A stretch of 64,000 nt of DNA from the sequence record NC_105514.1, one strand, 5' to 3'. Below, in pieces: positions 1,509 through 27,204 of the stretch (position 1 is the stretch's first letter; each line of letters begins with the position of its first letter). The DNA is from Escherichia phage JLBYU40. The position numbers and the translations under genes are program-made. The notes beneath the pieces were generated by a model. That model did not search any database, was not told the origin of the DNA, and was given only the letters and a program-made list of their open reading frames with translations.

Positions 1509-1610
1509 GCTTGTTTCCTCAGTTATTAATGAAAATGGTATCTGTGGCTGAATTCGATGTCAGCAATGATAGCTGGTTGGCTACCGGTTTACTTAACTCT
1601 ACACAGAATT

Positions 1611-2183: not shown

Positions 2184-2204
2184 TACTTCTTTCCTTTAGT
2201 AATT

Positions 2205-2280
2205 TGGACGACCGCATGAGATTTGAACTCACATAAAAAGGATTTGCAATCCTTCGCCTAAGCCATTCAGCCAACGGTCG
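2205..2280 (-). tRNA. tRNA-Cys (GCA)
   Basis: Acceptor CGACCGT/GCGGTCG, anticodon arm AAGGA-TTGCAAA-TCCTT, T-loop TTCAAAT, CCA encoded. Confidence 0.65.
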
Positions 2281-2328
2281 GTTTATCTTGTTCTGTCATG
2301 TTGCTTCTCCAGTTCAATTTATGTAATT

Positions 2329-2357
2329 ATTATACAGAACTTTTGGAAACTAAGCAA
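2329..2357 (-). promoter_or_regulatory. sigma70-type promoter (-35 TTGCTT, 17 bp, -10 TATAAT)
   Basis: Plus-strand attata 2329-2334 and aagcaa 2352-2357; conserved cassette. Confidence 0.6.
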
Positions 2358-2627
2358 CTACATTTTTAAGAATTTGATGCCTTTCTTTTTCTTCTTATAT
2401 TTCCACGTTAATGGATTCTGCCGATTGTGAACGCTTGAGATCTTCGTCTCGTCAAAGTTCTTCAATATCATGTAATCACAAGATAATTGTTCTAATGGAA
2501 TGTGATCACCGTCAAAAGCATATACATAAGGCTGTTGACTAACACGATAATGATAGACTTTGTTAATTCTACGTTTTAGCGACTTATCAGCGCAGTAAAT
2601 AAAGAAGTTTTCAGGATGCATCAGCAT
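2358..2627 (-). CDS. hypothetical protein (89 aa)
   Basis: ORF track. Confidence 0.4.
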   Translation of the reverse strand: MLMHPENFFIYCADKSLKRRINKVYHYRVSQQPYVYAFDGDHIPLEQLSCDYMILKNFDETKISSVHNRQNPLTWKYKKKKKGIKFLKM

Positions 2628-2641
2628 CTCCTTCGATTTGG

Positions 2642-2713
2642 TGCACCCTGTTCGTATCGAACGAACCTCTCAAGCTCTTCAGGCAAGCGCTAATCCATCT
2701 CAGCTAAAGGTGC
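2642..2713 (-). tRNA. probable tRNA-Phe (GAA)
   Basis: Acceptor GCACCTT/AGGGTGC, D-stem GCTG/TAGC, anticodon loop CTGAAGA, T-arm GTTCG-TTCGATA-CGAAC; anticodon stem weak (two U.U). Confidence 0.4.
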
Positions 2714-2719
2714 AAATTT

Positions 2720-2796
2720 TGGCAAACCTACTAGGACTCGAACCTAGACCGTACGGTTTTGGAGACCGACATGCTGTCCAGTAACACTCTAGGAAT
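2720..2796 (-). tRNA. possible tRNA-Trp (CCA)
   Basis: T-arm CTAGG-TTCGAGT-CCTAG with encoded CCA, anticodon loop CTCCAAA; acceptor pairing imperfect, 5' boundary uncertain. Confidence 0.35.
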
Positions 2797-2804
2797 GCAG
2801 AAAT

Positions 2805-2881
2805 TGGCGTCCTGTGCGGGGATCGAACCCGCAAATCCTACCTTGAAAGGGTAGTGACTTTACCAGTTTGTCTAACAGGAC
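2805..2881 (-). tRNA. tRNA-Glu (UUC)
   Basis: Acceptor GTCCTGT/ACAGGAC, anticodon arm CTACC-CTTTCAA-GGTAG, T-arm GCGGG-TTCGATC-CCCGC, CCA encoded. Confidence 0.7.
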
Positions 2882-2888
2882 TTAAATT

Positions 2889-2979
2889 TGGTGTTGGATG
2901 ATGGAGTCGAACCACCCGAGACCCTTCCGAGTCGGCAGATTTACAGTCTGCTTCGCTACCTCTACGATACTAATCCAAC
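2889..2979 (-). tRNA. tRNA-Tyr (GUA), long variable arm
   Basis: Acceptor GTTGGAT/ATCCAAC, anticodon arm GCAGA-CTGTAAA-TCTGC, about 18-nt variable arm, T-loop TTCGACT, CCA encoded. Confidence 0.65.
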
Positions 2980-3042
2980 ATATTTAAAAGTATTCAAATA
3001 CTAGTTTAAACACTTTTAAATATGTTTCCGAATTAGATAACT

Positions 3043-3071
3043 ATTATATCAAGTTTTAAGGCACTGAGCAA
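3043..3071 (-). promoter_or_regulatory. sigma70-type promoter driving the tRNA operon (-35 TTGCTC, -10 TATAAT)
   Basis: Plus-strand attata 3043-3048 and gagcaa 3066-3071, 17-bp spacer. Confidence 0.5.
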
Positions 3072-3107
3072 GTCAAATTTTAAAGAACTTGCTCAGTGCT
3101 GTATTAG

Positions 3108-3383
3108 TTAGTCGAACTTAGGAGTGACAGTTAAGGAGAACGGAAGTTCGAAAACTTCTTCGCCCTCATTACTAACGGTAACTACACGACCTTTAAGTTC
3201 AGACATTAAAATATCAATATCAGCTTTTGCATCTGGAGCCATGCCAGCTTCAATACATTTAGCTTTAACTTCCGGTAAAAGCTCTACGTTATAGAGATAG
3301 AGCCACTCAATCTCACCTTCCCAGTCTTCCCAGGATTTGCAGATTGCACTTTCAATACCAGTTGCTACAACACGATTTTGCAT
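3108..3383 (-). CDS. hypothetical protein (91 aa)
   Basis: ORF track. Confidence 0.45.
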   Translation of the reverse strand: MQNRVVATGIESAICKSWEDWEGEIEWLYLYNVELLPEVKAKCIEAGMAPDAKADIDILMSELKGRVVTVSNEGEEVFELPFSLTVTPKFD

Positions 3384-3413
3384 TAATTAACTCCTTCATC
3401 AATTTATATAACT

Positions 3414-3443
3414 ATTATACCAGAAATTTAAAGTAAAAGGCAA
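3414..3443 (-). promoter_or_regulatory. sigma70-type promoter (-35 TTGCCT, -10 TATAAT)
   Basis: Plus-strand attata 3414-3419 and aggcaa 3438-3443, 18-bp spacer. Confidence 0.45.
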
Positions 3444-3473
3444 GTACATTTTTAAAAATTCTGTTTGGAGGAG

Positions 3474-3680
3474 CTAAACTCCAGATTTTTCGGCCAAGTC
3501 TAGACTAATAAGAGTTATAGCCATAATTGCTGCACCGTGTTCTTTTTCTCCGGTGTTTTTAGCAGAGTCTATAATATCCTTAATCTGTTCGTAATAACTT
3601 TTTACTTCTTGTTCAATGCCTGCCTCGGCTATCATGCCTTTAGCCATGAATCGTTGCATGGTAATTTCAGGATTAGCCAT
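3474..3680 (-). CDS. hypothetical protein (68 aa)
   Basis: ORF track; start overlaps stop of upstream small ORF (ATGGCTAA). Confidence 0.4.
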   Translation of the reverse strand: MANPEITMQRFMAKGMIAEAGIEQEVKSYYEQIKDIIDSAKNTGEKEHGAAIMAITLISLDLAEKSGV

Positions 3681-3840
3681 GTTGTTTCTCCAGTTTCATT
3701 TTTAATAGTTTACAGATGAAATCAACGTCTTCATCTGTGCCTAAGTCTCTATCCTCAAGGGTCGCCTTGAAGTTTTTCGTCAATTCCATGAGGATGACTT
3801 CCCTAGAACGACGTGTTGGCGGAGGTGGATGTCTATACAT
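3673..3840 (-). CDS. hypothetical small protein (about 55 aa)
   Basis: Hand-read ORF (MYRHPPPPTRRS...) with SD AAGGAAA upstream of ATG at 3840; stop overlaps next start. Confidence 0.35.
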   Translation of the reverse strand: MYRHPPPPTRRSREVILMELTKNFKATLEDRDLGTDEDVDFICKLLKMKLEKQHG

Positions 3841-3855
3841 CTTATTTCCTTAATT

Positions 3856-3932
3856 TGGTAGGGGTGGTGGGATTCGAACCCACAAAACCTGAATTTTAAG
3901 TCCAGTACCTATGCCAATTCGATTACACCCCC
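3856..3932 (-). tRNA. tRNA with UAA anticodon but short variable arm (identity uncertain)
   Basis: Acceptor GGGGGTG/CACCCCT, anticodon arm CTGGA-CTTAAAA-TTCAG, T-arm GTGGG-TTCGAAT-CCCAC, CCA encoded; D-arm poorly paired. Confidence 0.45.
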
Positions 3933-3939
3933 GTGTAAT

Positions 3940-4128
3940 TTAGTCAATTACTTTTGAAGCTTCAAGGTAGTCGATATAGTGTACGTTTTCTACCGTAATC
4001 ATATAATCTGCCACTTTATCCATAGCTTGGGCTTCAGAGGTAGCTCTGGCTAACCTATATCCTTTTTTATATTCATCAGAGTATTCTCTATCTTGAATAA
4101 ACACAACATAAACTACGTATAATTCCAC
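3940..4128 (-). CDS. hypothetical protein (about 62 aa; GTG start inferred)
   Basis: The 111-aa ORF in the track runs into tRNA genes; AGGGGG then GTG at about 4128 gives a tRNA-free CDS. Confidence 0.3.
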   Translation of the reverse strand: MELYVVYVVFIQDREYSDEYKKGYRLARATSEAQAMDKVADYMITVENVHYIDYLEASKVID

Positions 4129-4150
4129 TTGTAACCCCCTAATTAAGTTG

Positions 4151-4225
4151 GTGGCTCCCCGAGGATTCGAACCTACGTACCTTCCGGTTATGAGCCGGGT
4201 GCTCATACCATATGAGCTTGAGAAC
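4151..4225 (-). tRNA. tRNA with CAU anticodon (Met or Ile2)
   Basis: Acceptor GGTTCTC/GGGAGCC, D-stem GCTC/GAGC, anticodon arm CCCGG-CTCATAA-CCGGA, T-loop TTCGAAT; no encoded CCA. Confidence 0.5.
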
Positions 4226-4231
4226 CAAAAT

Positions 4232-4320
4232 CTGGCGGAAGAAGTGGGAATCGAACCCACAAGGCTATATTTCAAACCGACAGATTAGCAATCTGCTGCA
4301 ATACCGTTATGCTATTCTTC
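4232..4320 (-). tRNA. tRNA-Ser (GCU), long variable arm
   Basis: Acceptor GGAAGAA/TTCTTCC, anticodon arm GCAGA-TTGCTAA-TCTGT, long variable arm, T-arm GTGGG-TTCGATT-CCCAC, CCA encoded. Confidence 0.65.
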
Positions 4321-4342
4321 CGAATTTATAAGATATATTATA

Positions 4343-4864
4343 TTAGAAATTTAGCTTCATAGCAAGAAAATTTTTCAAGTTTTCGGTAGACATCTCATCT
4401 ACATCTACAGGAGAAACAAAGCCGTTTAATTTTCTAGCAAATTTTTCACCATCGGGATCATTGTCTCCAACAGCTACCAATTTAAAAGGTAGTAATTTCA
4501 GTTGCTTTAATAACGCTTTTCCTGGAGAAGAACCCAACATTGCTAGGGCTGGATAACCAGCGTTATGTAACGCAACTGCCTTAAATACAGATTCAGCAAT
4601 CAATACTACTTTTTCATCTCCATTGAGAGTTTCTAGTCCCCATACACACTGGGTAGTAGAATAAGTAAAGTATTTAGCTTCAAAGGGGCACTTACCATGA
4701 CCTTTTGGAGCAGAAGGATTATAAGTTTGATAGCCCCTCAACATCCCAGAGAAGTCATACAACGGGACTGTTAGCCATCCTTCTGGACTTAACCAGCAAT
4801 GATATTTATCTGTATCAAATCCCCTAGATAAGAGGTGCTGTGTTAGCTCATCAACATTCATATT
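4343..4864 (-). CDS. Toprim-like domain protein (hypothetical)
   Basis: Motifs IAESVFK and LVAVGDNDPDGEKFARKL resemble a Toprim acidic patch; start moved to MNVDEL. Confidence 0.4.
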   Translation of the reverse strand, partial: NMNVDELTQHLLSRGFDTDKYHCWLSPEGWLTVPLYDFSGMLRGYQTYNPSAPKGHGKCPFEAKYFTYSTTQCVWGLETLNGDEKVVLIAESVFKAVALHNAGYPALAMLGSSPGKALLKQLKLLPFKLVAVGDNDPDGEKFARKLNGFVSPVDVDEMSTENLKNFLAMKLNF

Positions 4865-4891
4865 TGGTTCCTCTCTCAAATTTATAGATAT

Positions 4892-4920
4892 ATTATACAG
4901 AGAATTTAGCATTCAAGCAA
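4892..4920 (-). promoter_or_regulatory. sigma70-type promoter (-35 TTGCTT, 17 bp, -10 TATAAT)
   Basis: Plus-strand attata 4892-4897, aagcaa 4915-4920. Confidence 0.6.
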
Positions 4921-5036
4921 TCAAATTTTTTAACTTTTTAGAGGAAAATCATAGGGCGCTTAAGGGTAACAGATAAGTGGTGAGGACCAAAATTTGTGAC
5001 CCCACTAAAAATCCGGGGGCAATTTTTAAAGACCCC

Positions 5037-5065
5037 TTGACATTTTCGCTGGGGTAGTGTAAAGT
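5037..5065 (+). promoter_or_regulatory. sigma70-type promoter (-35 TTGACA, about 17 bp, -10 TAAAGT)
   Basis: ttgaca at 5037-5042; TAAAGT/TATAT-like -10 about 17 bp downstream; followed by SD AGGAGG. Confidence 0.5.
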
Positions 5066-5127
5066 ATATGTTATGGATGAGTGATCAAAGAGACACACAT
5101 TTTCTATATACTAGGAGGTGTCAAAAA

Positions 5128-6114
5128 ATGACAGAAGAAGTAGCTAAGAGTCCTGAGACCGTCGCTAGCGTTGCAGCAGAACTGCACCGTCACGAGGAAT
5201 CAGATAAGAAAAAGTGGGAGAAGGTCAGAGCCTACGAAGAAAAACATCGTGAACACGATGATGAAGAAGATGACGATGATGAACATTGTCATAAATATGG
5301 AAAACATAAAATGCAAGAACCAGTAAACGTATTCACTAGTGGCTTCCCTGGCCTACTGGGTGGTTACCCAGCAAACGCAGGTGCTTTCGGTGGTGAAGGT
5401 ATGGGACTATTCGGAGCTATCCTAATCGGTGCTCTATTAACAGGTGGATTCGGTGGTTTCGGTGGATTCGGTGGACGTGGTGTAGTTGGTGAAGGTACCG
5501 CAGTTGATGCAGTACTTCAGAACCAAGATACCGCTAGTATTCTAGCAGCTATTAACACTACTCGTACAGAAGCTAATCAGGGTACTGGGGCTGTGTTAAG
5601 CGCAGTTAACAATGGTTTTAGCCAGACATCCCAAAACCAGAGCCGTGATACTCAGTCTGTACTAACTACGATTTATGGTACAGGTGCTAATCTGTCTAAT
5701 CAGATCTGCCAGGAAACTCGCAACGTTATTCAGGGTCAGTTCGATCTTTCTCGCCAGATTGATCAATCTTTCGCAGCTAACCAGATAGCTCGTGCACAAG
5801 ATAAATTTGATTCTGCACAGATCGCTTTCCAGCAGACTTTACAAACTAATAACCAGTTTGCCGCTGTTCAGGCTCAGATGTGTGCTAACCAGAACTCTCT
5901 GGAACGTCAGATCGCTGAATGTTGCTGTGAACTTCAGACTGCGATCGCTGGTGTAACTACTGCGCGTATCCAGGATGAGTTAGATGCATGTCGCCTACGT
6001 GAGGCAATCGCTGCGGGTAATGGTGCTAACGATCAGGTAATTAATCAAATCGCTGTAAGTCTTGGTGCAATCACTCAGACTCTGGCTGGTCTGCAGGCTA
6101 AACTGCCGGCTTAA
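5128..6114 (+). CDS. hypothetical protein: acidic/His-rich N-terminus, Gly-zipper hydrophobic segment, long Gln/Asn/Ala-rich helical region
   Basis: ATG 5128 after AGGAGG; GFGGFGGFGG and GAILIGALLTGG; codons biased to highly expressed E. coli-like usage. Confidence 0.6.
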   Translation: MTEEVAKSPETVASVAAELHRHEESDKKKWEKVRAYEEKHREHDDEEDDDDEHCHKYGKHKMQEPVNVFTSGFPGLLGGYPANAGAFGGEGMGLFGAILIGALLTGGFGGFGGFGGRGVVGEGTAVDAVLQNQDTASILAAINTTRTEANQGTGAVLSAVNNGFSQTSQNQSRDTQSVLTTIYGTGANLSNQICQETRNVIQGQFDLSRQIDQSFAANQIARAQDKFDSAQIAFQQTLQTNNQFAAVQAQMCANQNSLERQIAECCCELQTAIAGVTTARIQDELDACRLREAIAAGNGANDQVINQIAVSLGAITQTLAGLQAKLPA

Positions 6115-6135
6115 TATTAAGGGGAGGAGCCCATT

Positions 6136-6552
6136 ATGAGTAAATATGGTTTTGTAAATAACGGACTTAATCAAAGTATGGGCTCCCAGCAGCCCATTCC
6201 GGGTCTGGATAACCCCTACTTACAACAATTGCAACAGCGTTTAGCAGAAGCGCAACAGATGCAGCAACAACTCCAGCAAAACCCTGGAAGTGTGAGTCCT
6301 ATGCAAATGATGCAGCAAATGAGCGGGCAGTCGCAAATGCCTCAACAAATGCAGCAACAGGTGCCTCAGCAGCAAGTTCAGCAACAAACCCAACAACCGC
6401 AGGTTTCTGCGGAAGGACAGGCAGTACTAGCCCTTTTCGAAGACTTCGCAAAGACAGAGGATGGGAAACAGCTTGTATCACTTATGGGTAAGTTTAATAG
6501 CTTCTGCCAAAGCCAGGTTGCAAAAGCTCAAAATAGTGGTAATAACTCCTAA
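6136..6552 (+). CDS. hypothetical Gln-rich protein (138 aa)
   Basis: ORF with SD GGGGAGGAG upstream; about 35% Gln in the central region. Confidence 0.5.
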   Translation: MSKYGFVNNGLNQSMGSQQPIPGLDNPYLQQLQQRLAEAQQMQQQLQQNPGSVSPMQMMQQMSGQSQMPQQMQQQVPQQQVQQQTQQPQVSAEGQAVLALFEDFAKTEDGKQLVSLMGKFNSFCQSQVAKAQNSGNNS

Positions 6553-6561
6553 GGAGGAATT

Positions 6562-6756
6562 ATGTGTTGCAGAAAATCTGTTTCGTGCTGCCCAATGCCT
6601 GTAGCACGTTGTTGCTCTCCAGCAATGTTTACGCAAATACCGGCGTTCAATCCGTTTGCCTTTAAGCCTACTCTTATCCTGCCCCCTAGAGTAGATTTTC
6701 AGTCAAGATTGGCCTCCCGTATGGGTAGTTGCTGTAACAAGAGTATATGGTTCTAA
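6562..6756 (+). CDS. hypothetical Cys-rich small protein (64 aa, four CC doublets)
   Basis: Strong SD AAGGAGGA 5 nt before ATG; 8 Cys arranged as CC pairs. Confidence 0.4.
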   Translation: MCCRKSVSCCPMPVARCCSPAMFTQIPAFNPFAFKPTLILPPRVDFQSRLASRMGSCCNKSIWF

Positions 6757-6772
6757 GGAACCAAACAATAAA

Positions 6773-6806
6773 GCCCCTAGTCGAAAGACTTAGGGGCTTT
6801 TCTTTT
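6773..6806 (+). terminator. rho-independent terminator
   Basis: GCCCCTA/TAGGGGC stem followed by TTTTCTTTT. Confidence 0.6.
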
Positions 6807-6816
6807 ATCTTAAATA

Positions 6817-6851
6817 CAGAAAAGCCCTGCGCTCTCTAGGAAACGCAGGGC
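6817..6851 (-). terminator. rho-independent terminator for the convergent minus-strand gene
   Basis: GCCCTGCG/CGCAGGGC 8-bp stem; U-tract on minus strand (plus-strand agaaaa). Confidence 0.55.
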
Positions 6852-6876
6852 TTATTTCAGATGTTACATGCGGGTA

Positions 6877-7824
6877 TTATTTATTACGCATATCCATAAT
6901 CATTTGGCCATCATAGCCAGTGCCAACCACAGTCTGCGGTACACCACCTTGGTATTTCTGAGCACGAATCATTTCAACTTCCAGTTGCTTCCAGCGAATC
7001 ATCTCAGGAGTAATGGTACGTTGCAATGCGGCGTTAGCTTCAGCTTCTTTCTTAGCTGCATATAGTTTAGCATCTGCGTCACGTTCATTGGCAATAGCTT
7101 GGTTGTTGCGAGCTTCACGGTCTGCTTCTGCTTGTTTAACTTTTTGCTGTGCTTCCTGTTCAACGCGAGCCAGTTCAGCTTTCGCAGCATTAACTTGCTC
7201 TTCACGAACTTTGGTATTCTGTACCTGTTCCATGATTACCGGTGGCAAAGTAATATCCTGAAGGAATACCTGCTTAACTGTATAACCATATGGGCGTGCA
7301 TACTCTTCAACTTCCTGTTGAATTGCAGTTTGCAATTGAGCCTGAATTTTAGCATCAAACAAATCTTGTGCTTTAGGTACAGACTTACCAAACTCACGAA
7401 TAGTAGACAGTAATTTTTCAGTTACATACTTGTCTAGTGCCTGATCCTGAGTACCTGCGTTAATACGGTTAATTGGTGCCTTAGAACCATCAAACTGCAA
7501 CATAACAGTCAGGTCAACAGTGGATTTAAACTTATCCTGGCTAGGAACCTGAAGTTTATCTAATTTTACAGCAATATCTTTTGTACTAAAAGTGTCGAAA
7601 GATGCAAATGGGTTTACAAGATGGAAACCTGGTAATACTGGGTTAGGATCTACTTTACCCAGAAATGTTTGGGTTTTAACCGTACCATCAGAAACAATAG
7701 TATATGAATTAAAAGCTAGGATTAAACCTGCTAAACCAACTACAGCACCAATACCCCAACGTTTAATAGTACGAATTACTTTCTGCTCAGAAGTCAGTTC
7801 TTTCATATTTTTAGTATTAAACAT
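6877..7824 (-). CDS. SPFH / band-7 (prohibitin/HflK-like) membrane protein
   Basis: N-terminal TM helix (GIGAVVGLAGLILAF), then SPFH-like core and Ala/Glu/Gln-rich coiled coil. Confidence 0.6.
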   Translation of the reverse strand: MFNTKNMKELTSEQKVIRTIKRWGIGAVVGLAGLILAFNSYTIVSDGTVKTQTFLGKVDPNPVLPGFHLVNPFASFDTFSTKDIAVKLDKLQVPSQDKFKSTVDLTVMLQFDGSKAPINRINAGTQDQALDKYVTEKLLSTIREFGKSVPKAQDLFDAKIQAQLQTAIQQEVEEYARPYGYTVKQVFLQDITLPPVIMEQVQNTKVREEQVNAAKAELARVEQEAQQKVKQAEADREARNNQAIANERDADAKLYAAKKEAEANAALQRTITPEMIRWKQLEVEMIRAQKYQGGVPQTVVGTGYDGQMIMDMRNK

Positions 7825-7858
7825 ATATTTCCTTTGTTTTAGTTACAGTTAATAAAAT

Positions 7859-7933
7859 TGGCCGAGGTGACAGGATTCGAACCTGCATAAAGGAATTTAG
7901 AAGACTCCTGCCTCTCCCTTAGACTACACCCCG
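7859..7933 (-). tRNA. tRNA-Arg (UCU)
   Basis: Acceptor CGGGGTG/CACCTCG, anticodon arm GGAGT-CTTCTAA-ATTCC, T-arm GCAGG-TTCGAAT-CCTGT, CCA encoded. Confidence 0.65.
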
Positions 7934-20009: not shown

Positions 20010-20771
20010 TTACACCTTCCCCATGTCTTTAAAAATATCATAGAATGCTTTAGACTCAACAGAACGAACGTTATCAATCAATTCGATCATTGAGAAGGGG
20101 GCATTTTCGTATTTCTCATAGACTTCCATAAGGAGTGCTAGACCTGAGTCGCCTTTAATGTCTTTCTGGGCTATATCTCCGCAGATAATTAAACGGCAGT
20201 CTTGTCCTACACGAGTTAGGAGACAAATCATTGCCTCAACGGAAATATTCTGAGCTTCATCGACAATTACATAGGAGTTGTTGAAAGTTCTGCCACGAGC
20301 ATGTTCGATAGCCAAAAATTTAATTTTCTGACGTTCGACATACCCTTTATATGCATGATCGCCAATGGCCCATTTCATACCATCAGCTATTGGCTCCAAC
20401 CAAGGCTCTAGCTTTTCCGCTAGATCACCAGGAAGCATACCAAGAGACTTACCTAGAGGTTCATTAGGACGTACGAGAATCACTTGCTCAATATCTGAGT
20501 GAATGTCTACTAGTTCCTGAGCTGCAAGAACGGACGGAATAAAGGTTTTACCAGTACCTGGCTCACCGATACCCACAGTCACTGTGTTGTTCTTGATCAT
20601 ATTGATATATGATTTTTGCTCGCGGTTTTTACCTACTAGGGATTTAGCAACTGGGTTAGCGTAATCATTAGAAAAATCAGCCTGAATTACGTTATTCTCA
20701 TATTTGTTGCCACGCTTTCTTGAACCATTGCGGTTCTCTCTTTTTTGACGTGCTTTTCCCATAAATAACAC
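20010..20771 (-). CDS. phoH: PhoH-like ATPase
   Basis: Walker A GIGEPGTGKTF and Walker B ...SYVIVDEAQN. Confidence 0.8.
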   Translation of the reverse strand: MLFMGKARQKRENRNGSRKRGNKYENNVIQADFSNDYANPVAKSLVGKNREQKSYINMIKNNTVTVGIGEPGTGKTFIPSVLAAQELVDIHSDIEQVILVRPNEPLGKSLGMLPGDLAEKLEPWLEPIADGMKWAIGDHAYKGYVERQKIKFLAIEHARGRTFNNSYVIVDEAQNISVEAMICLLTRVGQDCRLIICGDIAQKDIKGDSGLALLMEVYEKYENAPFSMIELIDNVRSVESKAFYDIFKDMGKV

Positions 20772-20835
20772 TCCTATAGTGTACTTCGCTAACAGAGGAT
20801 CAACAAAAAGATCTTGTTTATCAACTTACAAATAT

Positions 20836-20864
20836 ATTATACCAATATATACAGTAAAAAGCAA
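20836..20864 (-). promoter_or_regulatory. sigma70-type promoter (-35 TTGCTT, 17 bp, -10 TATAAT)
   Basis: Plus-strand attata 20836-20841, aagcaa 20859-20864. Confidence 0.55.
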
Positions 20865-21056
20865 CTACAATTTTAAATAAGCCTATGATATTGCATTTAA
20901 ATAAAAAATTTGCTTGCTTTTAACGTGAGATGTGTGATACTAGATAATCATTTTATATCGCGTGCACGAGTGCGTGATTATACAATTTTTAATAGAGATT
21001 GGCAAATAAAATTTTTTGACTCAGATCATGTTATAGAACTTTATAGTAAAATATTG

Positions 21057-21085
21057 TTGACATCCGCCCTCGAATGAGTTATAAT
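21057..21085 (+). promoter_or_regulatory. sigma70 consensus promoter upstream of nrdD (-35 TTGACA, 17 bp, -10 TATAAT)
   Basis: ttgaca 21057-21062 and tataat 21080-21085. Confidence 0.65.
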
Positions 21086-21114
21086 AGTAGTCTTAGTTAG
21101 AGAAGGAGGGTGTA

Positions 21115-22989: not shown

Positions 22990-23031
22990 GCTAATCAGCT
23001 GGGTTGCTAGTCGACCTGGCTTTTATTTTAT

Positions 23032-23060
23032 TTGCTTTCAGCCAAAAATTTATATATAAT
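23032..23060 (+). promoter_or_regulatory. sigma70-type promoter (-35 TTGCTT, 17 bp, -10 TATAAT)
   Basis: ttgctt 23032-23037, tataat 23055-23060; AT-rich upstream. Confidence 0.6.
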
Positions 23061-23088
23061 AGATTTATAAATTTGAGAGGAGAAAGCT

Positions 23089-23370
23089 ATGAGCGAGTTG
23101 CTTCCTAAAGTAGATGTCTCCCATCTTGGAGAGCCTAGTGAAGAACGTAAGGCTCTAGATTGGTTGGGTGGATTTGATTATCGTCGTGTTGTTGCAACAT
23201 GGAATGATAAGAAAGTTAAGAAGTTTCGGGTACATTATGTAGGTAAAGACAAGTGGCTCTGGATTGATTATGAAGAATCAAAGGGGTCTACTAAGGCTGT
23301 GAAAATTTATTGTATGTATGGGTATTATTATGCTCACTGTGATAAGAATGAATTTACAGTACAGAACTAA
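23089..23370 (+). CDS. hypothetical protein (93 aa)
   Basis: ORF track; SD GAGAGGAG upstream. Confidence 0.5.
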   Translation: MSELLPKVDVSHLGEPSEERKALDWLGGFDYRRVVATWNDKKVKKFRVHYVGKDKWLWIDYEESKGSTKAVKIYCMYGYYYAHCDKNEFTVQN

Positions 23371-23379
23371 GGAACAAGA

Positions 23380-23583
23380 ATGAAAAACGTAAAACATCTT
23401 AAATATCGCTTAATTTACAACGGACGTATGGAAACAGAAGATCTGGCCCAATTAGCTATTAATTCTAATGAGGTTACGGTGCGTGCTCTGGCAATTGAAA
23501 AGTTGCGTGCCTCTTATGAAAATCGTGTTATGGAACTGGAGGAGAAACTTTATGGACTTCTTGAATCAGAATCTAAAAAGTAA
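23380..23583 (+). CDS. hypothetical protein (67 aa)
   Basis: ORF track. Confidence 0.4.
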   Translation: MKNVKHLKYRLIYNGRMETEDLAQLAINSNEVTVRALAIEKLRASYENRVMELEEKLYGLLESESKK

Positions 23584-23746
23584 TCCAGAAAACATGCTTA
23601 TTGAGCAATGGAACTTTGGTTATAATGCTGGTGTAGCTACTTGTATTGCTAGATTGGATACGCTTATTAAGCAAGAAAAGGTACGCCCTGAGGAAGCAAT
23701 TTTACTCCAAAATATTATCGAAGGATTTAAGCAAGGAATCGTATAG
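23552..23746 (+). CDS. hypothetical protein (about 64 aa)
   Basis: Start at MDFLNQ after SD GGAGGAG; overlaps next gene start. Confidence 0.4.
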   Translation: MDFLNQNLKSNPENMLIEQWNFGYNAGVATCIARLDTLIKQEKVRPEEAILLQNIIEGFKQGIV

Positions 23747-24582
23747 TGCGTAGATTAGTTATTATTAGCGGTGCAGGTTTGAGTGTTGAAAGTGGTGTAC
23801 GAGCTTTTCGTACTGATACTGCTAGTGGTAAAGCATTGTGGGATGATTATGATCTAGAAGAAGTATGTAATATTCATGCCTTTCGTGGTAATTTTTATCA
23901 TAAAACCCATATGTTTTACAACAAACGTCGTGAAGAGCTAAAAACTGTTGAACCCAATCTTGCACATTTGCGTATTGGTGAATGGTATAAACAATATCCA
24001 GGTCAAGTAGTAAACTTGACTACCAACGTTGATGACCTTATTGAGCGTGCTGGCGTTCCACATAGTGACATTCTGCACATTCACGGATATTTAAAAGAGG
24101 TTGTTGTAGCTGATAGCTACAATAGTAGCAATAAACGGATTATTGATGTAGGGTATAATTCTATTGATCCAGATGATTATAAATGGGTTAAACCTAATGT
24201 AATCTTCTTTGGAGAACATGCTCCTGCATACGCAGAAATGTATAATGTTTTTGATGGTATTACCAGTCAAGATATGATCATTGTGGTTGGTTGCTCTAAT
24301 CAAGTAATTAACTTCTACTGGGAATTATTTCCTGTTCTTAATTTGACTGCTGCCAAACTAATGGTAGTTAACTACTATGATAGTGCCATAGCAGCAGAGC
24401 CAGGCTATCAAGGTATGACTCGTAGTGAGATGTACCAACTGGAAGATCGTGGTATTCCTTACTGGAGTAAAGGTGCAGTAGATGCTTTTAGTGACCCTGA
24501 TTTTATTGCTCGTGTGGAAGCCCATTTAGAGGGTAGACCTTATGTGCCGGAGAGAAGGGGAAACAGATATGTCCATAGTTAA
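23746..24582 (+). CDS. Sir2-family (sirtuin-like) NAD-dependent protein
   Basis: N-terminal ISGAGLSVESGVRAFR matches sirtuin NAD-binding motif GAGIS..SGIP.FR. Confidence 0.55.
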   Translation: MRRLVIISGAGLSVESGVRAFRTDTASGKALWDDYDLEEVCNIHAFRGNFYHKTHMFYNKRREELKTVEPNLAHLRIGEWYKQYPGQVVNLTTNVDDLIERAGVPHSDILHIHGYLKEVVVADSYNSSNKRIIDVGYNSIDPDDYKWVKPNVIFFGEHAPAYAEMYNVFDGITSQDMIIVVGCSNQVINFYWELFPVLNLTAAKLMVVNYYDSAIAAEPGYQGMTRSEMYQLEDRGIPYWSKGAVDAFSDPDFIARVEAHLEGRPYVPERRGNRYVHS

Positions 24583-24751
24583 ATCTGTTTATACACATCC
24601 CGATGATATATTTGTATGGGCGGACGGTAGTTGGTGCTATCGCTGTGAGCTGTGGGAAATGGACTATAAATCCGATGACTATGGTGTCATATATGTTGAT
24701 ACGGCTGAGTATGATACGTTCTTAGAAAGGAACAAAAATGGAAATAAGTAA
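24569..24751 (+). CDS. hypothetical protein (about 60 aa)
   Basis: Start at MSIVKSVY after SD; overlapping ORF-track entry trimmed. Confidence 0.35.
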   Translation: MSIVKSVYTHPDDIFVWADGSWCYRCELWEMDYKSDDYGVIYVDTAEYDTFLERNKNGNK

Positions 24752-25244
24752 TACTCCAATTATTTTTCTAGATATTGATGGGGTGCTCAATTCGAGCATC
24801 TCCCACCATCATGCGCCTGATCATGAAAAGATTTTCTTTGGAAGTGACTGGGTTTTCAAACCGCTTCTCAAGGCTTTTCAGGACTTTATTCGTCCTTCTC
24901 CGATAATGATTGTTGGAGTATCCTCATGGTTCCCTGTCAGGAATGAGATGGAGAACGTTCAGATTATGACCGGATTAGGTCTTATCGATCGTTTTCTTGG
25001 TACAACGGATTTTACTGGTGGTGGGCTATCTAGGGGTAATTCTGTTCTTCGCTTCGTTGAAAAGCATAAGCTCAAACATTGGTGTGTGCTGGATGATGCT
25101 GGTGCTATGATGTACCAGTATCCAACGGTTATAGTCAACGGTAGAACTGGAATAAATCTTCAAGATTTAAGAGCTGTTAGCTATATGCTAGAATTTAGCC
25201 CAGATCTTGAAATGTGTAAATCCTTACAACAATTTAAGGTGTAA
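24738..25244 (+). CDS. HAD-superfamily-like hydrolase (putative)
   Basis: N-terminal IIFLDIDGVLN resembles HAD motif I (DxDGV). Confidence 0.4.
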   Translation: MEISNTPIIFLDIDGVLNSSISHHHAPDHEKIFFGSDWVFKPLLKAFQDFIRPSPIMIVGVSSWFPVRNEMENVQIMTGLGLIDRFLGTTDFTGGGLSRGNSVLRFVEKHKLKHWCVLDDAGAMMYQYPTVIVNGRTGINLQDLRAVSYMLEFSPDLEMCKSLQQFKV

Positions 25245-25246
25245 AT

Positions 25247-25675
25247 ATGTTCAATAATGTATTCTCTAAAGAAGCTAACCCAATTTTGGTTAACTTTTGG
25301 CGTACTCTCCCGGCTAGCCTGTATAATGAGGCTATTAACTCCTTGAAAATATGGTGTGAAAATAATGAAATCTCCTTTGCTTTTAAAGATGATATTGATG
25401 AGGCCCCCTGTATTGGTTTAGTTGTGCAGGTAGAGGATGGTCTTGAAGAGATTGTGGGCTGGAAAGAGTTAGACGAAATGGGCTTAGTTTTTGCGTTAAA
25501 TTATAAGCTGTTTATGCCTGCTAAGCATCGCCTCGTTGTTAACCATAAAACTAGTGAATCTCCTGGTTTTCAGGTTAATGAACGTTATGGTTGGTCTTAC
25601 TCACCGGAAGAAGTAAATGAGGGGATTCAGAAACTTCGCCGTTTTGGTTATCAGATTCCGGGTTTAACTGCTTAA
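25247..25675 (+). CDS. hypothetical protein, paralog A
   Basis: Shares conserved blocks with the next ORF (PCIG, MGL..ALN, IPGL). Confidence 0.5.
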   Translation: MFNNVFSKEANPILVNFWRTLPASLYNEAINSLKIWCENNEISFAFKDDIDEAPCIGLVVQVEDGLEEIVGWKELDEMGLVFALNYKLFMPAKHRLVVNHKTSESPGFQVNERYGWSYSPEEVNEGIQKLRRFGYQIPGLTA

Positions 25676-25684
25676 GGAGGCAGA

Positions 25685-26077
25685 ATGGAACAAGTATATT
25701 GGCGTCAGATTGATCCTAGTTTGGTGAAGCGTGCGGAGAAGCTGCTACAACGTTGGTTGGGGGTAAGACAAGCCTCCTTCACTTTTCCGGAGCAGCAAAT
25801 AGACGATCCCTGTATTGGTGTTTTCCTATCAGGCTACGCTAGGGAATGGGAATTGGATTGGAATGAATTGTCTGCTATGGGCTTGATTGTTGCCCTAAAC
25901 TTCTCTTTGTTCCATCCACGTGGTTTGGCCATATGTCGTGTGCCTGATGACGGTTGTTCGCCCCATCTTTTACAGGTGGAAGATGATATTTGGGAGTACA
26001 CTCCAGATATTCTCACAGAAGCTAAAGAACAATTAAATCGTGTTGGGATTTATGTTCCGGGCTTAAATGATGAATGA
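25685..26077 (+). CDS. hypothetical protein, paralog B
   Basis: Tandem paralog of 25247-25675. Confidence 0.5.
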   Translation: MEQVYWRQIDPSLVKRAEKLLQRWLGVRQASFTFPEQQIDDPCIGVFLSGYAREWELDWNELSAMGLIVALNFSLFHPRGLAICRVPDDGCSPHLLQVEDDIWEYTPDILTEAKEQLNRVGIYVPGLNDE

Positions 26078-26216
26078 TTTTTATTAGCTGAAATTTGTAA
26101 TCCGGGCTATTAGTGCTCGGATTATTACATAATCTTTCCAGTCGATTGACAGTCAAAATAAATTGTCGTTGACAATTTGGATGGATTATGTAATAATATA
26201 TGTATTGGAGGTGAGG

Positions 26217-26669
26217 ATGTCATTCACACAGCAAGAACTTTTAGATAACTTCCGATATGAAGATGGTAAGTTATTTAGAACTACAGGAAGAAATGCAGGG
26301 AAAGAATGTTGTGTTTCTACGGGTAACGGATATTATCGTATATCTCTAGGGAATAGGACTATGCTTCGGCATAGAGCAATATTTTTAATGCATCATGGAT
26401 ACTTACCTGATTTAGTAGATCATGTGAATACTATAAAAGGTGATGATCGTATTGAAAATCTTAGAGAGCAGACAGTGTCCGGTAATCTAAGAAATATCAA
26501 ATATAAGAAAGGAATGCATGTTTACCCTTCTGGTAGTAAGAACTGGCAAGTAGTATTTACTATTAACCGTAAACGTATAGTTAAAGGAACATATGACAAC
26601 TATGAGGTTGCATGTTCTATGGCCAAGATGTTTAGAGGTCAATTATACGGTAGGGAATCAATCCAGTAA
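26217..26669 (+). CDS. HNH homing endonuclease (HNH plus AP2-like DNA-binding region)
   Basis: Start MSFTQQELL after SD GGAGGTGAGG; HNH region HRAIFLMHHGYLPDLVDHVN..NLR. Confidence 0.55.
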   Translation: MSFTQQELLDNFRYEDGKLFRTTGRNAGKECCVSTGNGYYRISLGNRTMLRHRAIFLMHHGYLPDLVDHVNTIKGDDRIENLREQTVSGNLRNIKYKKGMHVYPSGSKNWQVVFTINRKRIVKGTYDNYEVACSMAKMFRGQLYGRESIQ

Positions 26670-27204
26670 AATTTCATTTGCAAGGGAGTATTATTTTATA
26701 GTATAATATTCCCATAAATGAGAGACATTAGTAAAAATTGATTTTGCTAATTTTTCTTGTTTACAATCCGCGATACGGAACAGTTAGGCTGCCCCATTAA
26801 GGGTTGTTTTAACTGTTACGTGTTAGTTTTTAAACAAATAGTTAATAGAATACTTAGCGATCTGCGTCCCATAGGAACCCTGGTAAGGCCTCGAAGCAAC
26901 CTAGTATGAGGTGGTTGTGAAGTGAGATGGGAGGAGTGAAAAACTCCGAGACGTGATTCTGTAAGTTATATTGCATCTAGTATGAGCTAGTATATGAAGC
27001 ATTAGGTGAGCAAATCTGGCTTAGCGGCCATCCTCAAGGATTTGTGCGGTATAACAAAGCAGCAGCGCAGCGTGAAAGTGGAAGTTGCCACCCCACTTCA
27101 GTATTTGCGATTAATTTGTTGAGAAATTGACAGTAACAGTTGTTCTATTCTTTCTGAATAGTCCTAAAGAAAACTTATTTCATTTCCAACACAGGAGTAT
27201 TGTT

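What the first reader, a model, noticed from the sequence alone, without database searches (positions are those of the whole stretch)
23746..26077. Phage-encoded Sir2-like protein clustered with a HAD-like hydrolase and two tandem paralogous small proteins
The ORF at 23746-24582 opens with a sirtuin-type NAD-binding motif (GAGLSVESGVRAFR). Sir2 domains are known as NAD-consuming effectors in bacterial anti-phage systems, so a phage copy next to a HAD-like protein (FLDIDGVLN) and two duplicated unknowns is a plausible NAD/nucleotide-metabolism or counter-defence island rather than core replication machinery.
Basis: partly seen in the sequence, partly recalled or inferred. Interest (0 to 1): 0.55.

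Follow-up and report, generated by a model that had tools for sequence, protein, structure and literature searches.

The report
T5-phage sirtuin, phosphatase and DUF7415 operon
This is the already annotated early accessory operon of T5-like phages (T5.100 to T5.107): an intact CobB-like sirtuin, a small HAD phosphatase and two DUF7415 proteins, published in 2022 as a predicted but untested NAD-dependent RNA-repair module.

Summary
23746-24582 encodes a 278-aa sirtuin (Pfam SIR2, E 8e-25) with every catalytic motif intact. 24738-25244 encodes a HAD phosphatase (HAD_SAK_2). 25247-25675 and 25685-26077 are true paralogues (32% identity).

The window is a Tequintavirus, and these genes are T5.102, T5.105, T5.106 and T5.107. 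They lie in one early operon under strong purifying selection (dN/dS about 0.05-0.13).

The sirtuin belongs to the CobB/SIRT5 lineage. It has no zinc cysteines and matches no model of a defence system, so the analogy to the NAD-depleting Sir2 proteins of bacterial defence is not supported.

Iyer et al. 2022 already described this sirtuin+HAD neighbourhood in phage SP15. They predicted Tpt1-like removal of RNA 2'-phosphates. I reproduced the supporting contexts in rV5-like and jumbo phages.

New here:
- Each "unknown" holds two DUF7415 domains.
- The DUF7415 pair stays with Sir2 in Sugarlandvirus, where the HAD gene is absent.
- DUF7415 is a mobile phage domain, sometimes fused to nucleotide-pool enzymes.
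- T5-like phages seem to lack an RNA ligase.

A published T5 knock-down screen scores T5.100-T5.106 as not needed for fitness and T5.107 as marginally needed. The function remains untested. The finding is a known feature of modest interest.

The parts
22997..23031 (+). Intrinsic terminator after nrdD, marking the upstream boundary of the operon
   Evidence: A 10-bp stem with 5 G-C pairs followed by a T run; sequence. T5 and AKFV33 annotate a terminator at the same place.
23032..23061 (+). T5-type early promoter: TTGCTT (23032-23037), 17 nt spacer, TATAATA (23055-23061)
   Evidence: Read directly. It fits the T5 promoter consensus quoted in the AKFV33 record, and T5 annotates a promoter at this position. 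Consensus match only; no transcript data.
23089..23370 (+). Small ORF (93 aa), positional counterpart of T5.100; function unknown
   Evidence: phrog_7953, E 1e-65. Annotated as a CDS in ECOP18.
23380..23583 (+). Small ORF (67 aa), T5.101 family; function unknown
   Evidence: phrog_5236, E 1e-46, the same PHROG that the CRISPRi-ART supplement assigns to T5.101.
23552..23746 (+). Small ORF (about 64 aa; the longest frame opens at 23468); function unknown. Its TAG stop overlaps the sirtuin GTG start by one base.
   Evidence: phrog_5827 matches only aa 32-92 of the long form. The AKFV33 orthologue orf104 is 64 aa. TAGTG overlap seen.
23746..24582 (+). Sirtuin (278 aa), orthologue of T5.102. CobB/SIRT5-like, without zinc cysteines. 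Motifs: GAGxS 9-13, FR 21-22, Y58-x-x-R61(R62), N94/D96, H113-G114, FFGE 154-157, G182-x-S184, N209.
   Evidence: Pfam SIR2 88 bits. CobB 1s5p E 2e-17 with residue alignment. These residues are invariant in 24 phage homologues. Model pLDDT 86. Best fold match is CobB, TM 0.85. dN/dS 0.08-0.12.
24569..24751 (+). Small ORF (60 aa), orthologue of T5.104; function unknown. It overlaps the end of Sir2 and the start of HAD. T5.103 is absent from this window.
   Evidence: Alignment with T5.104 and ECOP18_138. RBS GAAGGGG followed by ATG at 24569. phrog_5116, E 3e-30.
24738..25244 (+). HAD-superfamily phosphatase (168 aa), orthologue of T5.105. Motif I D12-x-D14-G, motif II S62/S63, motif III R99, motif IV D119-D120. 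Little room for a cap domain.
   Evidence: Pfam HAD_SAK_2 71 bits, covering 1-138 of 139 positions. Invariant residues across six phage homologues. dN/dS 0.05-0.13.
25247..25675 (+). DUF7415 protein A (142 aa), orthologue of T5.106, with two DUF7415 domains
   Evidence: Pfam DUF7415 117 bits in two stretches. The halves scanned separately score 68.7 and 52.2 bits. Paralogue of the next gene.
25685..26077 (+). DUF7415 protein B (130 aa), orthologue of T5.107, with two DUF7415 domains. The C-terminal domain (aa 57-110) is the widespread stand-alone type.
   Evidence: Pfam 109 bits; halves score 59.3 and 54.1 bits. My own domain HMM scores 65.5 bits on aa 57-110. Model pLDDT 82.6. T5.107 is scored 'Fit' in the CRISPRi-ART screen.

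Best explanation
Shown: this is the conserved early accessory operon of T5-like phages (T5.100 to T5.107). It encodes a catalytically intact sirtuin of the CobB/SIRT5 lineage, without zinc cysteines, a small HAD phosphatase, and two proteins that each hold two DUF7415 domains. It is not a defence-type Sir2 NADase.

Inferred mechanism, which I favour (about 0.4): the one predicted by Iyer et al. 2022. The sirtuin would use NAD+ as Tpt1/KptA does. It would transfer ADP-ribose onto a phosphate at a damaged RNA end, such as a tRNA cut by a host nuclease, releasing nicotinamide. The His113-activated ribose hydroxyl would then resolve the adduct and free the RNA hydroxyl. The HAD would remove a terminal RNA phosphate, or would dephosphorylate the ADP-ribose phosphate by-product.

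The DUF7415 proteins have no visible catalytic features. I take them to be binding or adaptor modules whose link to the sirtuin is unproven. Sealing of the RNA would have to rely on a host ligase.
For: Identity of the genes:
- 93-96% nucleotide identity to ECOP18, AKFV33, SP15 and others, with gene-by-gene correspondence to T5.
- One promoter and overlapping or closely spaced genes.

Active enzymes:
- All sirtuin motifs are invariant in 24 phage homologues.
- All HAD motifs are invariant in six homologues.
- dN/dS is 0.05-0.13.

Context pointing to RNA or ADP-ribose end processing:
- Iyer et al. name SP15-type sirtuin+SAK-HAD neighbourhoods and predict KptA-like chemistry.
- rV5-type sirtuins, 57-60% identical to this one, sit beside an Rnl1-type RNA ligase, a cREC domain, an AAA_33 kinase and a calcineurin-like phosphoesterase in two genera with different gene order.
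- In two jumbo-phage lineages the sirtuin gene is followed by a Nudt16-like Nudix, cREC and PIN-PhoH. One lineage also has a 2H/Acb1-like gene.
- In Aeromonas phage PX29 a HAD_SAK_2 homologue lies about 0.7 kb upstream of rnlA and a DUF7415 ORF directly downstream of it.

Other support:
- The invariant Y58-x-x-R61-R62 implies an anionic group in the substrate (the role of YxxR in SIRT5 and CobB is from established knowledge).
- The His-assisted ribose-OH attack of sirtuins parallels step 2 of the Tpt1 reaction (inference).
- T5 is already known to counter tRNA-cleaving immunity with its own tRNA (PMC11464382, listed). Twelve tRNA genes lie in this window.
Against: - No sirtuin has been shown to act on RNA. 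I found no later paper testing the prediction.
- Everything needed for ordinary lysine deacylation is retained, including the FGE loop. The closest sequences and folds are true protein deacylases, CobB and SIRT5.
- tblastn with three Rnl1-type ligases and with the kinase, cREC, phosphoesterase and MazG-like proteins found nothing in this window or in the first 50 kb of the T5-like phage MM-1.
- Sugarlandvirus has no HAD gene in the operon.
- PHB05 and ValKK3 show no RNA-repair neighbours.
- Inside Demerecviridae the synteny may simply be inherited.
- Knock-down of T5.102 and T5.105 gave no fitness effect on a laboratory host. That fits a conditional role but proves nothing.
Confidence: 0.4

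Rival explanations
1. Ordinary protein deacylase. The phage sirtuin removes acetyl, succinyl or malonyl groups from lysines of host or phage proteins early in infection, consuming NAD+ and producing O-acyl-ADP-ribose. The HAD and DUF7415 genes are merely co-transcribed neighbours.
For: - Full-length match to canonical SIR2 and to CobB-type NCBIfam models.
- Best sequence and fold matches are CobB and SIRT5.
- The catalytic His, Asn and Asp, the FGE loop and the class-III YxxR motif are invariant.
- Nudix and NAD-salvage genes beside jumbo-phage homologues would equally serve O-acyl-ADP-ribose and nicotinamide recycling.
- This is the standing database annotation and the reading given for Vibrio phage sirtuins in PMC5107563.
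Against: - It does not explain the repeated linkage to domains that process cyclic phosphates and RNA ends: cREC, 2H, Rnl1-type ligase, kinase and PIN-PhoH.
- The zinc cysteines, which shape the peptide cleft, are lost in the whole clade.
- Host CobB restricts T4 and lambda (PMC4271551), so a simple extra copy of CobB activity is not obviously useful to a phage.
- All NCBIfam scores are far below the equivalog cut-offs.
Confidence: 0.3
2. The sirtuin works on the NAD+ pool or on NAD-derived immune signals, as an NADase or ADP-ribosyltransferase, to blunt Thoeris, DSR or other NAD-centred defences. The HAD and the paralogues help to process the products.
For: - The enzyme must bind NAD+.
- Jumbo-phage homologues sit next to Nampt and NMNAT/ADPR-pyrophosphatase genes and a Nudix gene.
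- The operon is dispensable on a laboratory host, as counter-defence genes often are.
- DUF7415 ORFs occupy variable accessory positions in P2-like prophages.
Against: - No match to any PADLOC defence model. No defence-type Sir2 structure appears among the top 50 fold matches.
- Consuming NAD+ would add to, not counter, NAD-depleting defences.
- No Macro, NADAR, SLOG or Tad-like sponge domains are present in the operon.
- T5-like phages carry no NAD-salvage genes next to it.
Confidence: 0.1
3. No functional module. The four genes are unrelated accessory genes that share a Demerecviridae early transcription unit by descent. DUF7415 proteins act on their own as small binders of host factors, for example in host take-over or anti-defence.
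For: - Outside Demerecviridae neither the HAD nor DUF7415 lies within 4 kb of the sirtuin gene.
- Sugarlandvirus has no HAD gene in the operon.
- DUF7415 occurs alone in many unrelated settings: between nrdD and nrdG, in a P2 late operon, in the early operon of a 186-like prophage, and fused to varied domains.
- Only T5.107 shows a knock-down phenotype.
- Sir2 has diverged much more than the HAD between Tequintavirus and Epseptimavirus, 52-60% against 89% identity, as if exchanged independently.
Against: - Sir2 followed by the two DUF7415 genes is kept across three Demerecviridae genera down to 36-57% protein identity.
- HAD_SAK_2 and DUF7415 lie together again around rnlA in PX29.
- Iyer et al. 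count the sirtuin-HAD pair as a conserved neighbourhood.
Confidence: 0.2

Closest known systems
Phage T5 genes T5.102 (Sir2-like), T5.105, T5.106 and T5.107, and the 'Escherichia phage SP15 type' sirtuin + Swiss-army-knife HAD neighbourhood of Iyer et al. 2022 (Viruses 14:1977)
   Same: Same genes in the same order, between nrdD and the origin-binding protein gene. Amino-acid identity to T5 is 92-98% and nucleotide identity to SP15 is 93.8%. Same promoter and terminator layout.
   Different: This window lacks T5.103 and carries an extra HNH gene after the operon. The passage of the 2022 paper that I read does not name the DUF7415 genes.
E. coli CobB and human SIRT5 (class III sirtuins; NAD-dependent lysine deacetylase/desuccinylase)
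   Same: Same fold (TM 0.85 to CobB), NAD loop, catalytic His, Asn and Asp, FGE loop, and the YxxR motif.
   Different: Only about 25% identity. All four zinc cysteines are missing in the whole phage clade. Scores fall well below the NCBIfam equivalog cut-offs. Gene context is nucleic-acid metabolism. The substrate is unknown.
Tpt1/KptA RNA 2'-phosphotransferase (ART superfamily)
   Same: The proposed chemistry: NAD+-dependent ADP-ribosyl transfer to a phosphate, then attack by the ribose hydroxyl. Also the company of 2H, Nudix and phosphatase enzymes.
   Different: The fold is unrelated. This is an analogy of function only, and the activity is not demonstrated.
Defence-associated Sir2 NADases (ThsA of Thoeris, DSR1/DSR2, Sir2-HerA, Sir2-pAgo)
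   Same: Sir2 superfamily Rossmann domain that binds NAD+.
   Different: No PADLOC match. No fused sensor domain and no partner ATPase or Argonaute. Fold matches are to deacylases. It is encoded by a virulent phage in an early operon.
T4 PseT (polynucleotide kinase-phosphatase) with RnlA: phage tRNA repair against anticodon nucleases
   Same: A DxD-type HAD phosphatase with no obvious cap domain. In PX29 a homologue lies close to rnlA.
   Different: No kinase domain. No RNA ligase was detected in T5-like genomes. No sequence-detectable relative has a solved structure.

Membership tests
Sir2 family, canonical sirtuins (Pfam PF02146) | Rossmann NAD-binding loop GAGxSxxxGxxxFR | tested here: met
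   GAGLSVESGVRAFR at aa 9-22. G9, A10, G11, S13, S16, G17, F21 and R22 are invariant in 24 homologues.
Sir2 family, canonical sirtuins (Pfam PF02146) | Catalytic His (HG motif) and the Asn/Asp of the TQNID motif | tested here: met
   H113-G114 and T92-T93-N94-V95-D96 align with the CobB HG and TQNID motifs and are invariant.
Sir2 family, canonical sirtuins (Pfam PF02146) | Zinc-binding module with two CxxC pairs | tested here: not met
   There is no cysteine between aa 114 and 152; the only cysteines are C41 and C183. This holds for the whole phage clade. The model still predicts a three-stranded sheet there. The same loss was noted for KVP40-type phage sirtuins (PMC5107563).
Sir2 family, canonical sirtuins (Pfam PF02146) | Overall sirtuin fold | tested here: met
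   AlphaFold model pLDDT 86. Foldseek best match CobB 1s5p, E 4e-18, TM 0.85; then SIRT5, Sir2Tm and Sir2Af.
Sir2 family, canonical sirtuins (Pfam PF02146) | NAD+-dependent deacylase or ADP-ribosyl-transfer activity | not testable with these tools
   Needs biochemistry.
Class III sirtuins (CobB/SIRT5 type) | Y-x-x-R pair that binds a negatively charged acyl group | tested here: met
   FYNKRR: Y58 and R61 align with the FYNARR of CobB and are invariant, together with R62. The role of the motif is from established knowledge of SIRT5 and CobB.
Defence-associated Sir2 effectors (Thoeris ThsA, DSR, Sir2-HerA, Sir2-pAgo) | Sequence match to defence Sir2 models | tested here: not met
   No PADLOC family at E <= 0.01.
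Defence-associated Sir2 effectors (Thoeris ThsA, DSR, Sir2-HerA, Sir2-pAgo) | Fused sensor domain or partner gene (SLOG, TIR, HerA, pAgo) | tested here: not met
   Single-domain protein. The neighbours are small ORFs, a HAD and DUF7415 proteins.
Viral sirtuin clade predicted to act in RNA repair (Iyer et al. 2022) | Conserved neighbourhood with a Swiss-army-knife HAD phosphatase (SP15 type) | tested here: met
   The HAD_SAK_2 gene lies 156 bp downstream of the sirtuin gene. SP15 is 93.8% identical over the region. Paper text.
Viral sirtuin clade predicted to act in RNA repair (Iyer et al. 2022) | Close relatives embedded in clusters with RNA ligase, cREC, kinase, 2H or Nudix | tested here: met
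   57-60% identity to the JES2013 and VIK251 sirtuins, which sit beside an Rnl1-type ligase, cREC and an AAA-type kinase. Jumbo-phage homologues sit beside Nudt16-like Nudix, cREC and PIN-PhoH.
Viral sirtuin clade predicted to act in RNA repair (Iyer et al. 2022) | A complete repair pathway (RNA ligase) in the same genome | tested here: not met
   tblastn with three Rnl1-type ligases found nothing in the window or in MM-1 positions 1-50000. The last part of the genome, about 24 kb, and other ligase types (RtcB, Rnl2) were not searched.
Viral sirtuin clade predicted to act in RNA repair (Iyer et al. 2022) | RNA 2'-phosphotransferase-like activity | not testable with these tools
   It is a prediction in the paper too. 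No experimental follow-up was found.
HAD superfamily, HAD_SAK_2 (PF18143) | Four HAD motifs: DxD, S/T, K/R, DD | tested here: met
   D12, D14, S62/S63, R99 and D119-D120 are invariant in six homologues. Pfam 71 bits against a cut-off of 27.5.
HAD superfamily, HAD_SAK_2 (PF18143) | No cap domain, the architecture typical of HADs that act on macromolecular ends | tested here: inconclusive
   Only about 45 residues separate motifs I and II in a 168-aa protein. No structure was predicted, and no solved relative was found by sequence.
DUF7415 (PF24187) | Match to the Pfam model above the gathering score | tested here: met
   Each half of each protein passes on its own, with 59.3, 54.1, 68.7 and 52.2 bits against a cut-off of 27. 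However, my own HMM of stand-alone domains matches only the C-terminal halves, and hhalign of the N-terminal against the C-terminal half is not significant.

The most novel reading that the evidence does not exclude
A canonical-lineage sirtuin that has dropped its zinc module works on RNA phosphate ends, a convergent Tpt1. In T5-like phages its constant partners are the two double-DUF7415 proteins rather than the HAD. Together they would form an uncharacterised NAD-dependent module that protects phage translation from tRNA-cleaving immunity. DUF7415 would be a mobile adaptor domain that also docks nucleotide-pool enzymes.
Probability: 0.15. Interest if true: 0.75.

Novelty: already known. Interest (0 to 1): 0.3.

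Why it matters
If the published prediction holds, this would be the first sirtuin shown to act on nucleic acid rather than protein. It would also be a new route by which T5-like phages, already known to beat tRNA-cleaving defences with their own tRNAs, repair or tolerate RNA damage.

It matters for phage therapy genomics as well. Hundreds of Escherichia, Salmonella and Klebsiella phage genomes carry the gene.

As it stands, the window adds only another copy of a known, annotated operon. The useful additions from this work are:
- the domain structure and mobility of DUF7415;
- its persistence next to the sirtuin gene in a genus with no HAD gene in the operon;
- the apparent lack of a phage RNA ligase;
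- a widespread mis-annotation of the HAD as a second Sir2.

Tried and rejected
- HAD: sequence and profile searches against PDB found no relative.
- Internal duplication of the DUF7415 proteins: hhalign of the N-terminal against the C-terminal half was not significant, and my stand-alone-domain HMM hits only the C-terminal halves. The claim of two domains therefore rests on the Pfam model alone.
- Defence systems: PADLOC gave no relevant hit for any operon protein.
- The idea that DUF7415 is the cREC domain of the rV5-type clusters is rejected. The cREC proteins match PF20274 and show no similarity to DUF7415.
- The idea that Sir2 is split by an HNH gene in phages annotated 'Sir2 x2' is rejected. 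The second 'Sir2' is the HAD, mislabelled through phrog_18062.
- Search for an RNA ligase, kinase, cREC, phosphoesterase or MazG-like gene in T5-like DNA: none found.
- Burroughs & Aravind 2016, the source of the SAK-HAD name, is not held in the library. No paper mentions DUF7415.
- The literature searches run turned up no experimental work on the T5 sirtuin.


Full report
**What is there.** The window is a T5-like phage (Tequintavirus). Region 23000-26700 is 93-96% identical to ECOP18, AKFV33, SP15, MM-1 and many others. Annotated records map the genes one for one onto phage T5.

- The sirtuin gene (23746-24582) is T5.102, annotated "putative Sir2-like protein".
- The small ORF before the HAD is T5.104. 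Its start is most likely the ATG at 24569.
- The HAD gene (24738-25244) is T5.105.
- The two paralogues (25247-25675 and 25685-26077) are T5.106 and T5.107.

A terminator follows nrdD at 22997-23031. A T5-type promoter (TTGCTT, 17 nt, TATAATA) lies at 23032-23061. Three further small ORFs precede the sirtuin gene. All genes overlap or lie a few bases apart, each with its own ribosome-binding site. The finding is therefore the downstream two-thirds of a single early operon of about 3 kb, lying between nrdD and the origin-binding protein gene. In this phage an HNH homing-endonuclease gene, with its own promoter-like site, has been inserted after the operon.

- The sirtuin matches Pfam SIR2 end to end (88 bits, E 8e-25) and E. 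coli CobB (E 2e-17).
- The HAD matches HAD_SAK_2 (71 bits).
- The two unknowns are 32% identical (E 6e-20), and both match DUF7415.
- Against T5, AKFV33 and ECOP18, all four genes have dN/dS of 0.05-0.13. They are expressed, constrained genes.

**The sirtuin.** I aligned 24 phage homologues with 54-86% identity to this protein. The invariant positions are:

- the NAD loop: G9, A10, G11, S13, S16, G17, F21, R22;
- Y58, R61 and R62;
- P70, N71 and H74;
- T92-T93-N94-V95-D96-D97-L98;
- H113-G114;
- K149, P150, V152, F154, F155 and E157;
- G182 and S184;
- N209.

The residue alignment with CobB identifies these as the NAD loop, the class-III YxxR pair, the TQNID Asn and Asp, the catalytic His and the FGE loop.

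The one canonical feature that is missing is the zinc site. No cysteine lies between aa 114 and 152, here or anywhere in the clade. The AlphaFold model (pLDDT 86) still places a small three-stranded sheet at that position.

Foldseek ranks CobB first (TM 0.85), followed by SIRT5, Sir2Tm and Sir2Af. No defence-type Sir2 appears in the top 50. PADLOC returns nothing. NCBIfam returns only CobB-type models, far below their cut-offs. The protein is thus a divergent member of the deacylase lineage.

**Distribution and context of the sirtuin.** tblastn finds it in 1006 phage records. These include T5-like phages, rV5-like phages (57-60% identity), phi92-like phages, KVP40-like Vibrio phages (about 40%) and jumbo phages. 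The neighbours differ by lineage.

- *rV5-like phages.* In JES2013 and Mydovirus VIK251 the sirtuin gene sits with an Rnl1-type RNA ligase, a cREC domain protein (PF20274), a small P-loop kinase, a calcineurin-like phosphoesterase, a MazG-like pyrophosphatase and a DNA ligase. The gene order differs between the two.
- *Jumbo phages.* In two lineages it is followed by a Nudt16-like Nudix, cREC and a PIN-PhoH protein. In Eneladusvirus a 2H/Acb1-like gene, Nampt and an NMNAT/ADPR-pyrophosphatase lie just upstream.
- *PHB05 and ValKK3.* Nothing informative was found.

In none of these phages is a HAD_SAK_2 or DUF7415 gene within 4 kb of the sirtuin gene.

**Prior knowledge.** Iyer, Burroughs, Anantharaman and Aravind (Viruses 2022; PMC9503650, section 3.7.3) already define this as a distinct viral sirtuin clade with three neighbourhood types. 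[quoted passage not shown] SP15 is one of my near-identical hits.

They propose that the sirtuin acts like KptA/Tpt1, removing RNA 2'-phosphates left after cleavage by metal-independent nucleases. [quoted passage not shown] I found no later paper that tests this. The core of the finding is therefore both annotated and already interpreted in the literature.

**The HAD.** D12, D14, S62/S63, R99 and D119-D120 are invariant across six phage homologues, so it is probably an active phosphatase. At 168 aa, with about 45 residues between motifs I and II, it has little room for a cap domain. HADs that act on macromolecular ends typically lack a cap, but I did not model it. No solved relative is detectable by sequence.

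Homologues occur in T4-like phages in variable regions. In Aeromonas phage PX29 the homologue lies directly after td and about 0.7 kb upstream of rnlA.

**The paralogues.** Pfam's DUF7415 model matches each half of each protein independently and well above threshold. The operon thus carries four DUF7415 copies. One caveat applies: my own HMM built from stand-alone domains finds only the C-terminal halves, and a profile comparison of the two halves is not significant.

A profile search of 1.8 billion representative proteins found 162 relatives at E <= 0.001. Most are stand-alone proteins of 65-120 aa built around a conserved core, W-N-E-L-S..G-L..R-I-N.E-I-L-H-P-L-G-L-A..R. A few are fusions:

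- to a dATP/dGTP pyrophosphohydrolase domain (PF04447);
- to a thymidylate-kinase-like domain;
- to DUF3850/ASCH;
- to long regions that match no other Pfam family; some, such as P0170, look like coiled coils by eye.

Stand-alone copies occur in several settings:

- between nrdD and nrdG in Klebsiella T4-like phages;
- directly after rnlA in PX29;
- at several different positions in P2-like prophages.

The predicted fold (pLDDT 82.6) has no informative structural neighbour, and no catalytic-looking conserved residues stand out. I read DUF7415 as a small, mobile, non-enzymatic phage domain, probably a binding module.

Two facts tie it to this operon. First, Klebsiella phage Sugarland (Demerecviridae; its sirtuin is about 50% identical to this one) keeps Sir2, a small ORF and two double-DUF7415 genes before the terminator, but has no HAD gene in the operon. 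Second, in the CRISPRi-ART knock-down screen of T5 (Adler et al. 2025; PMC11879866 supplements), T5.107 is one of only 17 genes scored "Fit" (p = 0.02). T5.100 to T5.106, including the sirtuin and the HAD, are "Not Fit". That screen also scores the origin-binding protein and the nrd genes "Not Fit", so a negative result there is weak evidence.

**How it most likely works.**

*Shown:*
- an intact NAD-binding sirtuin active site;
- an anion-binding YxxR(R) motif;
- an intact HAD active site;
- co-transcription;
- purifying selection.

*Inferred:* the acceptor of the ADP-ribosyl transfer. Two readings compete.

- *RNA-end reading.* It is supported by repeated, independent linkage of this clade to enzymes with no role in protein deacylation: cREC, 2H, RNA ligase, polynucleotide-type kinase and PIN-PhoH. 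It is also supported by the HAD and DUF7415 genes lying on either side of rnlA in PX29. A mechanistic parallel exists too: the sirtuin's His-activated ribose hydroxyl attack resembles step 2 of the Tpt1 reaction.
- *Protein-deacylase reading.* It is supported by everything in the protein itself, and by the fact that the Nudix and NAD-salvage neighbours would fit it equally well.

Several points count against the RNA reading in T5-like phages specifically. I found no RNA ligase, kinase or cREC gene in this window or in the first 50 kb of a T5-like genome, so a host ligase would be needed. The HAD is also dispensable in one genus.

I put the RNA-end mechanism at about 0.4, plain protein deacylation at about 0.3, and NAD-pool or signal manipulation at about 0.1. 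Cutting across all three, there is roughly a 0.2 chance that the neighbours are not functionally coupled at all.

Host CobB restricts T4 and lambda (PMC4271551). That makes a simple extra CobB activity an odd thing for a phage to carry. T5 is already known to evade the tRNA-cleaving PARIS system with its own tRNA (PMC11464382), and 12 phage tRNA genes lie in this window. An RNA-damage theme would fit that biology.

**Verdict.** The cluster is accessory and NAD-linked, but it is not analogous to defence Sir2 proteins, and it is not a proven four-gene module. The feature is already known, since it has been annotated since the T5 genome was sequenced and its sirtuin-HAD pairing and predicted function were published in 2022. 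Interest is modest. The open question is biochemical and directly testable.

Noticed in passing
window 24738-25244; also L002 3963-4469 and L017 4656-5171: The HAD gene is labelled 'Sir2 (NAD-dependent deacetylase)' in many RefSeq and Pharokka records. The cause is phrog_18062, which carries that name but matches aa 77-168 of the HAD (E 5e-58). This is a propagated mis-annotation, which is why records list 'Sir2 x2'.
   Followed up: yes
window 26163-26669 (likely start ATG 26217): An HNH homing-endonuclease gene (Pfam HNH_3), with its own sigma-70-like promoter at 26169-26197, is inserted between the end of the operon and the origin-binding protein gene. T5 has none at this spot; ECOP18 and AKFV33 have one.
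   Followed up: partly
window 24542-24751 versus L007 4156-4514: T5.103 is missing here, through a deletion of about 150 bp relative to T5. T5.103, T5.104 and AKFV33 orf106 are small paralogues that share a W-x-D-G-S-W-C-Y-R motif.
   Followed up: partly
T5.107 orthologue, window 25685-26077: In the published CRISPRi-ART screen of T5, T5.107 is one of only 17 'Fit' genes (p = 0.02) and is listed there as of entirely unknown function. Its paralogue T5.106 is 'Not Fit'.
   Followed up: partly
P0105, P0106, P0077, P0158 (representative proteins); L011, L013, L014: The DUF7415 domain is fused in some proteins to a dATP/dGTP pyrophosphohydrolase (PF04447), a thymidylate-kinase-like domain or DUF3850/ASCH. 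As a stand-alone ORF it sits at different accessory positions in P2-like prophages: between gpL and gpX; between an RNase_T exonuclease gene and a Dam methylase gene; and two genes from ogr.
   Followed up: partly
L008 3480-3713 (Klebsiella phage KP182): A 77-aa stand-alone DUF7415 ORF lies exactly between nrdD and nrdG in Jiaodavirus phages. In T5-like phages the operon also follows nrdD directly. This may be coincidence, or it may point to a link with anaerobic ribonucleotide reduction.
   Followed up: no
window 20010-20771 (minus strand); L021 5546-7000; L022 5455-6894: A PhoH-like ATPase gene lies near the sirtuin gene in T5-like phages (without a PIN domain, 3 kb upstream, divergently transcribed) and in two jumbo-phage lineages (as a PIN-PhoH fusion, 1-1.5 kb downstream).
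   Followed up: no
L021 1-2478 and 2781-3227 (Erwinia phage pEa_SNUABM_47): Just upstream of the sirtuin gene, this jumbo phage carries genes annotated as NMNAT/ADP-ribose pyrophosphatase and Nampt, together with an ORF that matches the anti-CBASS Acb1 / 2H phosphoesterase family.
   Followed up: no
Sir2 versus HAD across Demerecviridae (L017, L016): Between Tequintavirus and Epseptimavirus the sirtuin is only 52-60% identical, whereas the adjacent HAD is 89% identical. The T5-type sirtuin is as close to rV5-type sirtuins (57-60%) as to the Epseptimavirus one. This suggests that the sirtuin gene has been exchanged between phage families.
   Followed up: partly
window 85-7933, minus strand: A cluster of 12 tRNA genes: Met, Pro, Asp, Asn, Cys, Phe, Trp, Glu, Tyr, Leu, Ser and Arg.
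   Followed up: no
window about 20800-21100 and about 50000: The GC skew changes sign near 21 kb, matching the divergent phoH/nrdD promoter region, and again near 50 kb, which I did not examine.
   Followed up: no
records MG065690, MG065682 and MG065650: Records named 'Campylobacter phage A135/A112b/B15' (135-150 kb) carry sirtuins with the same 52-57% identity to this one as those of Escherichia rV5-like and phi92-like phages. The host names look doubtful.
   Followed up: no
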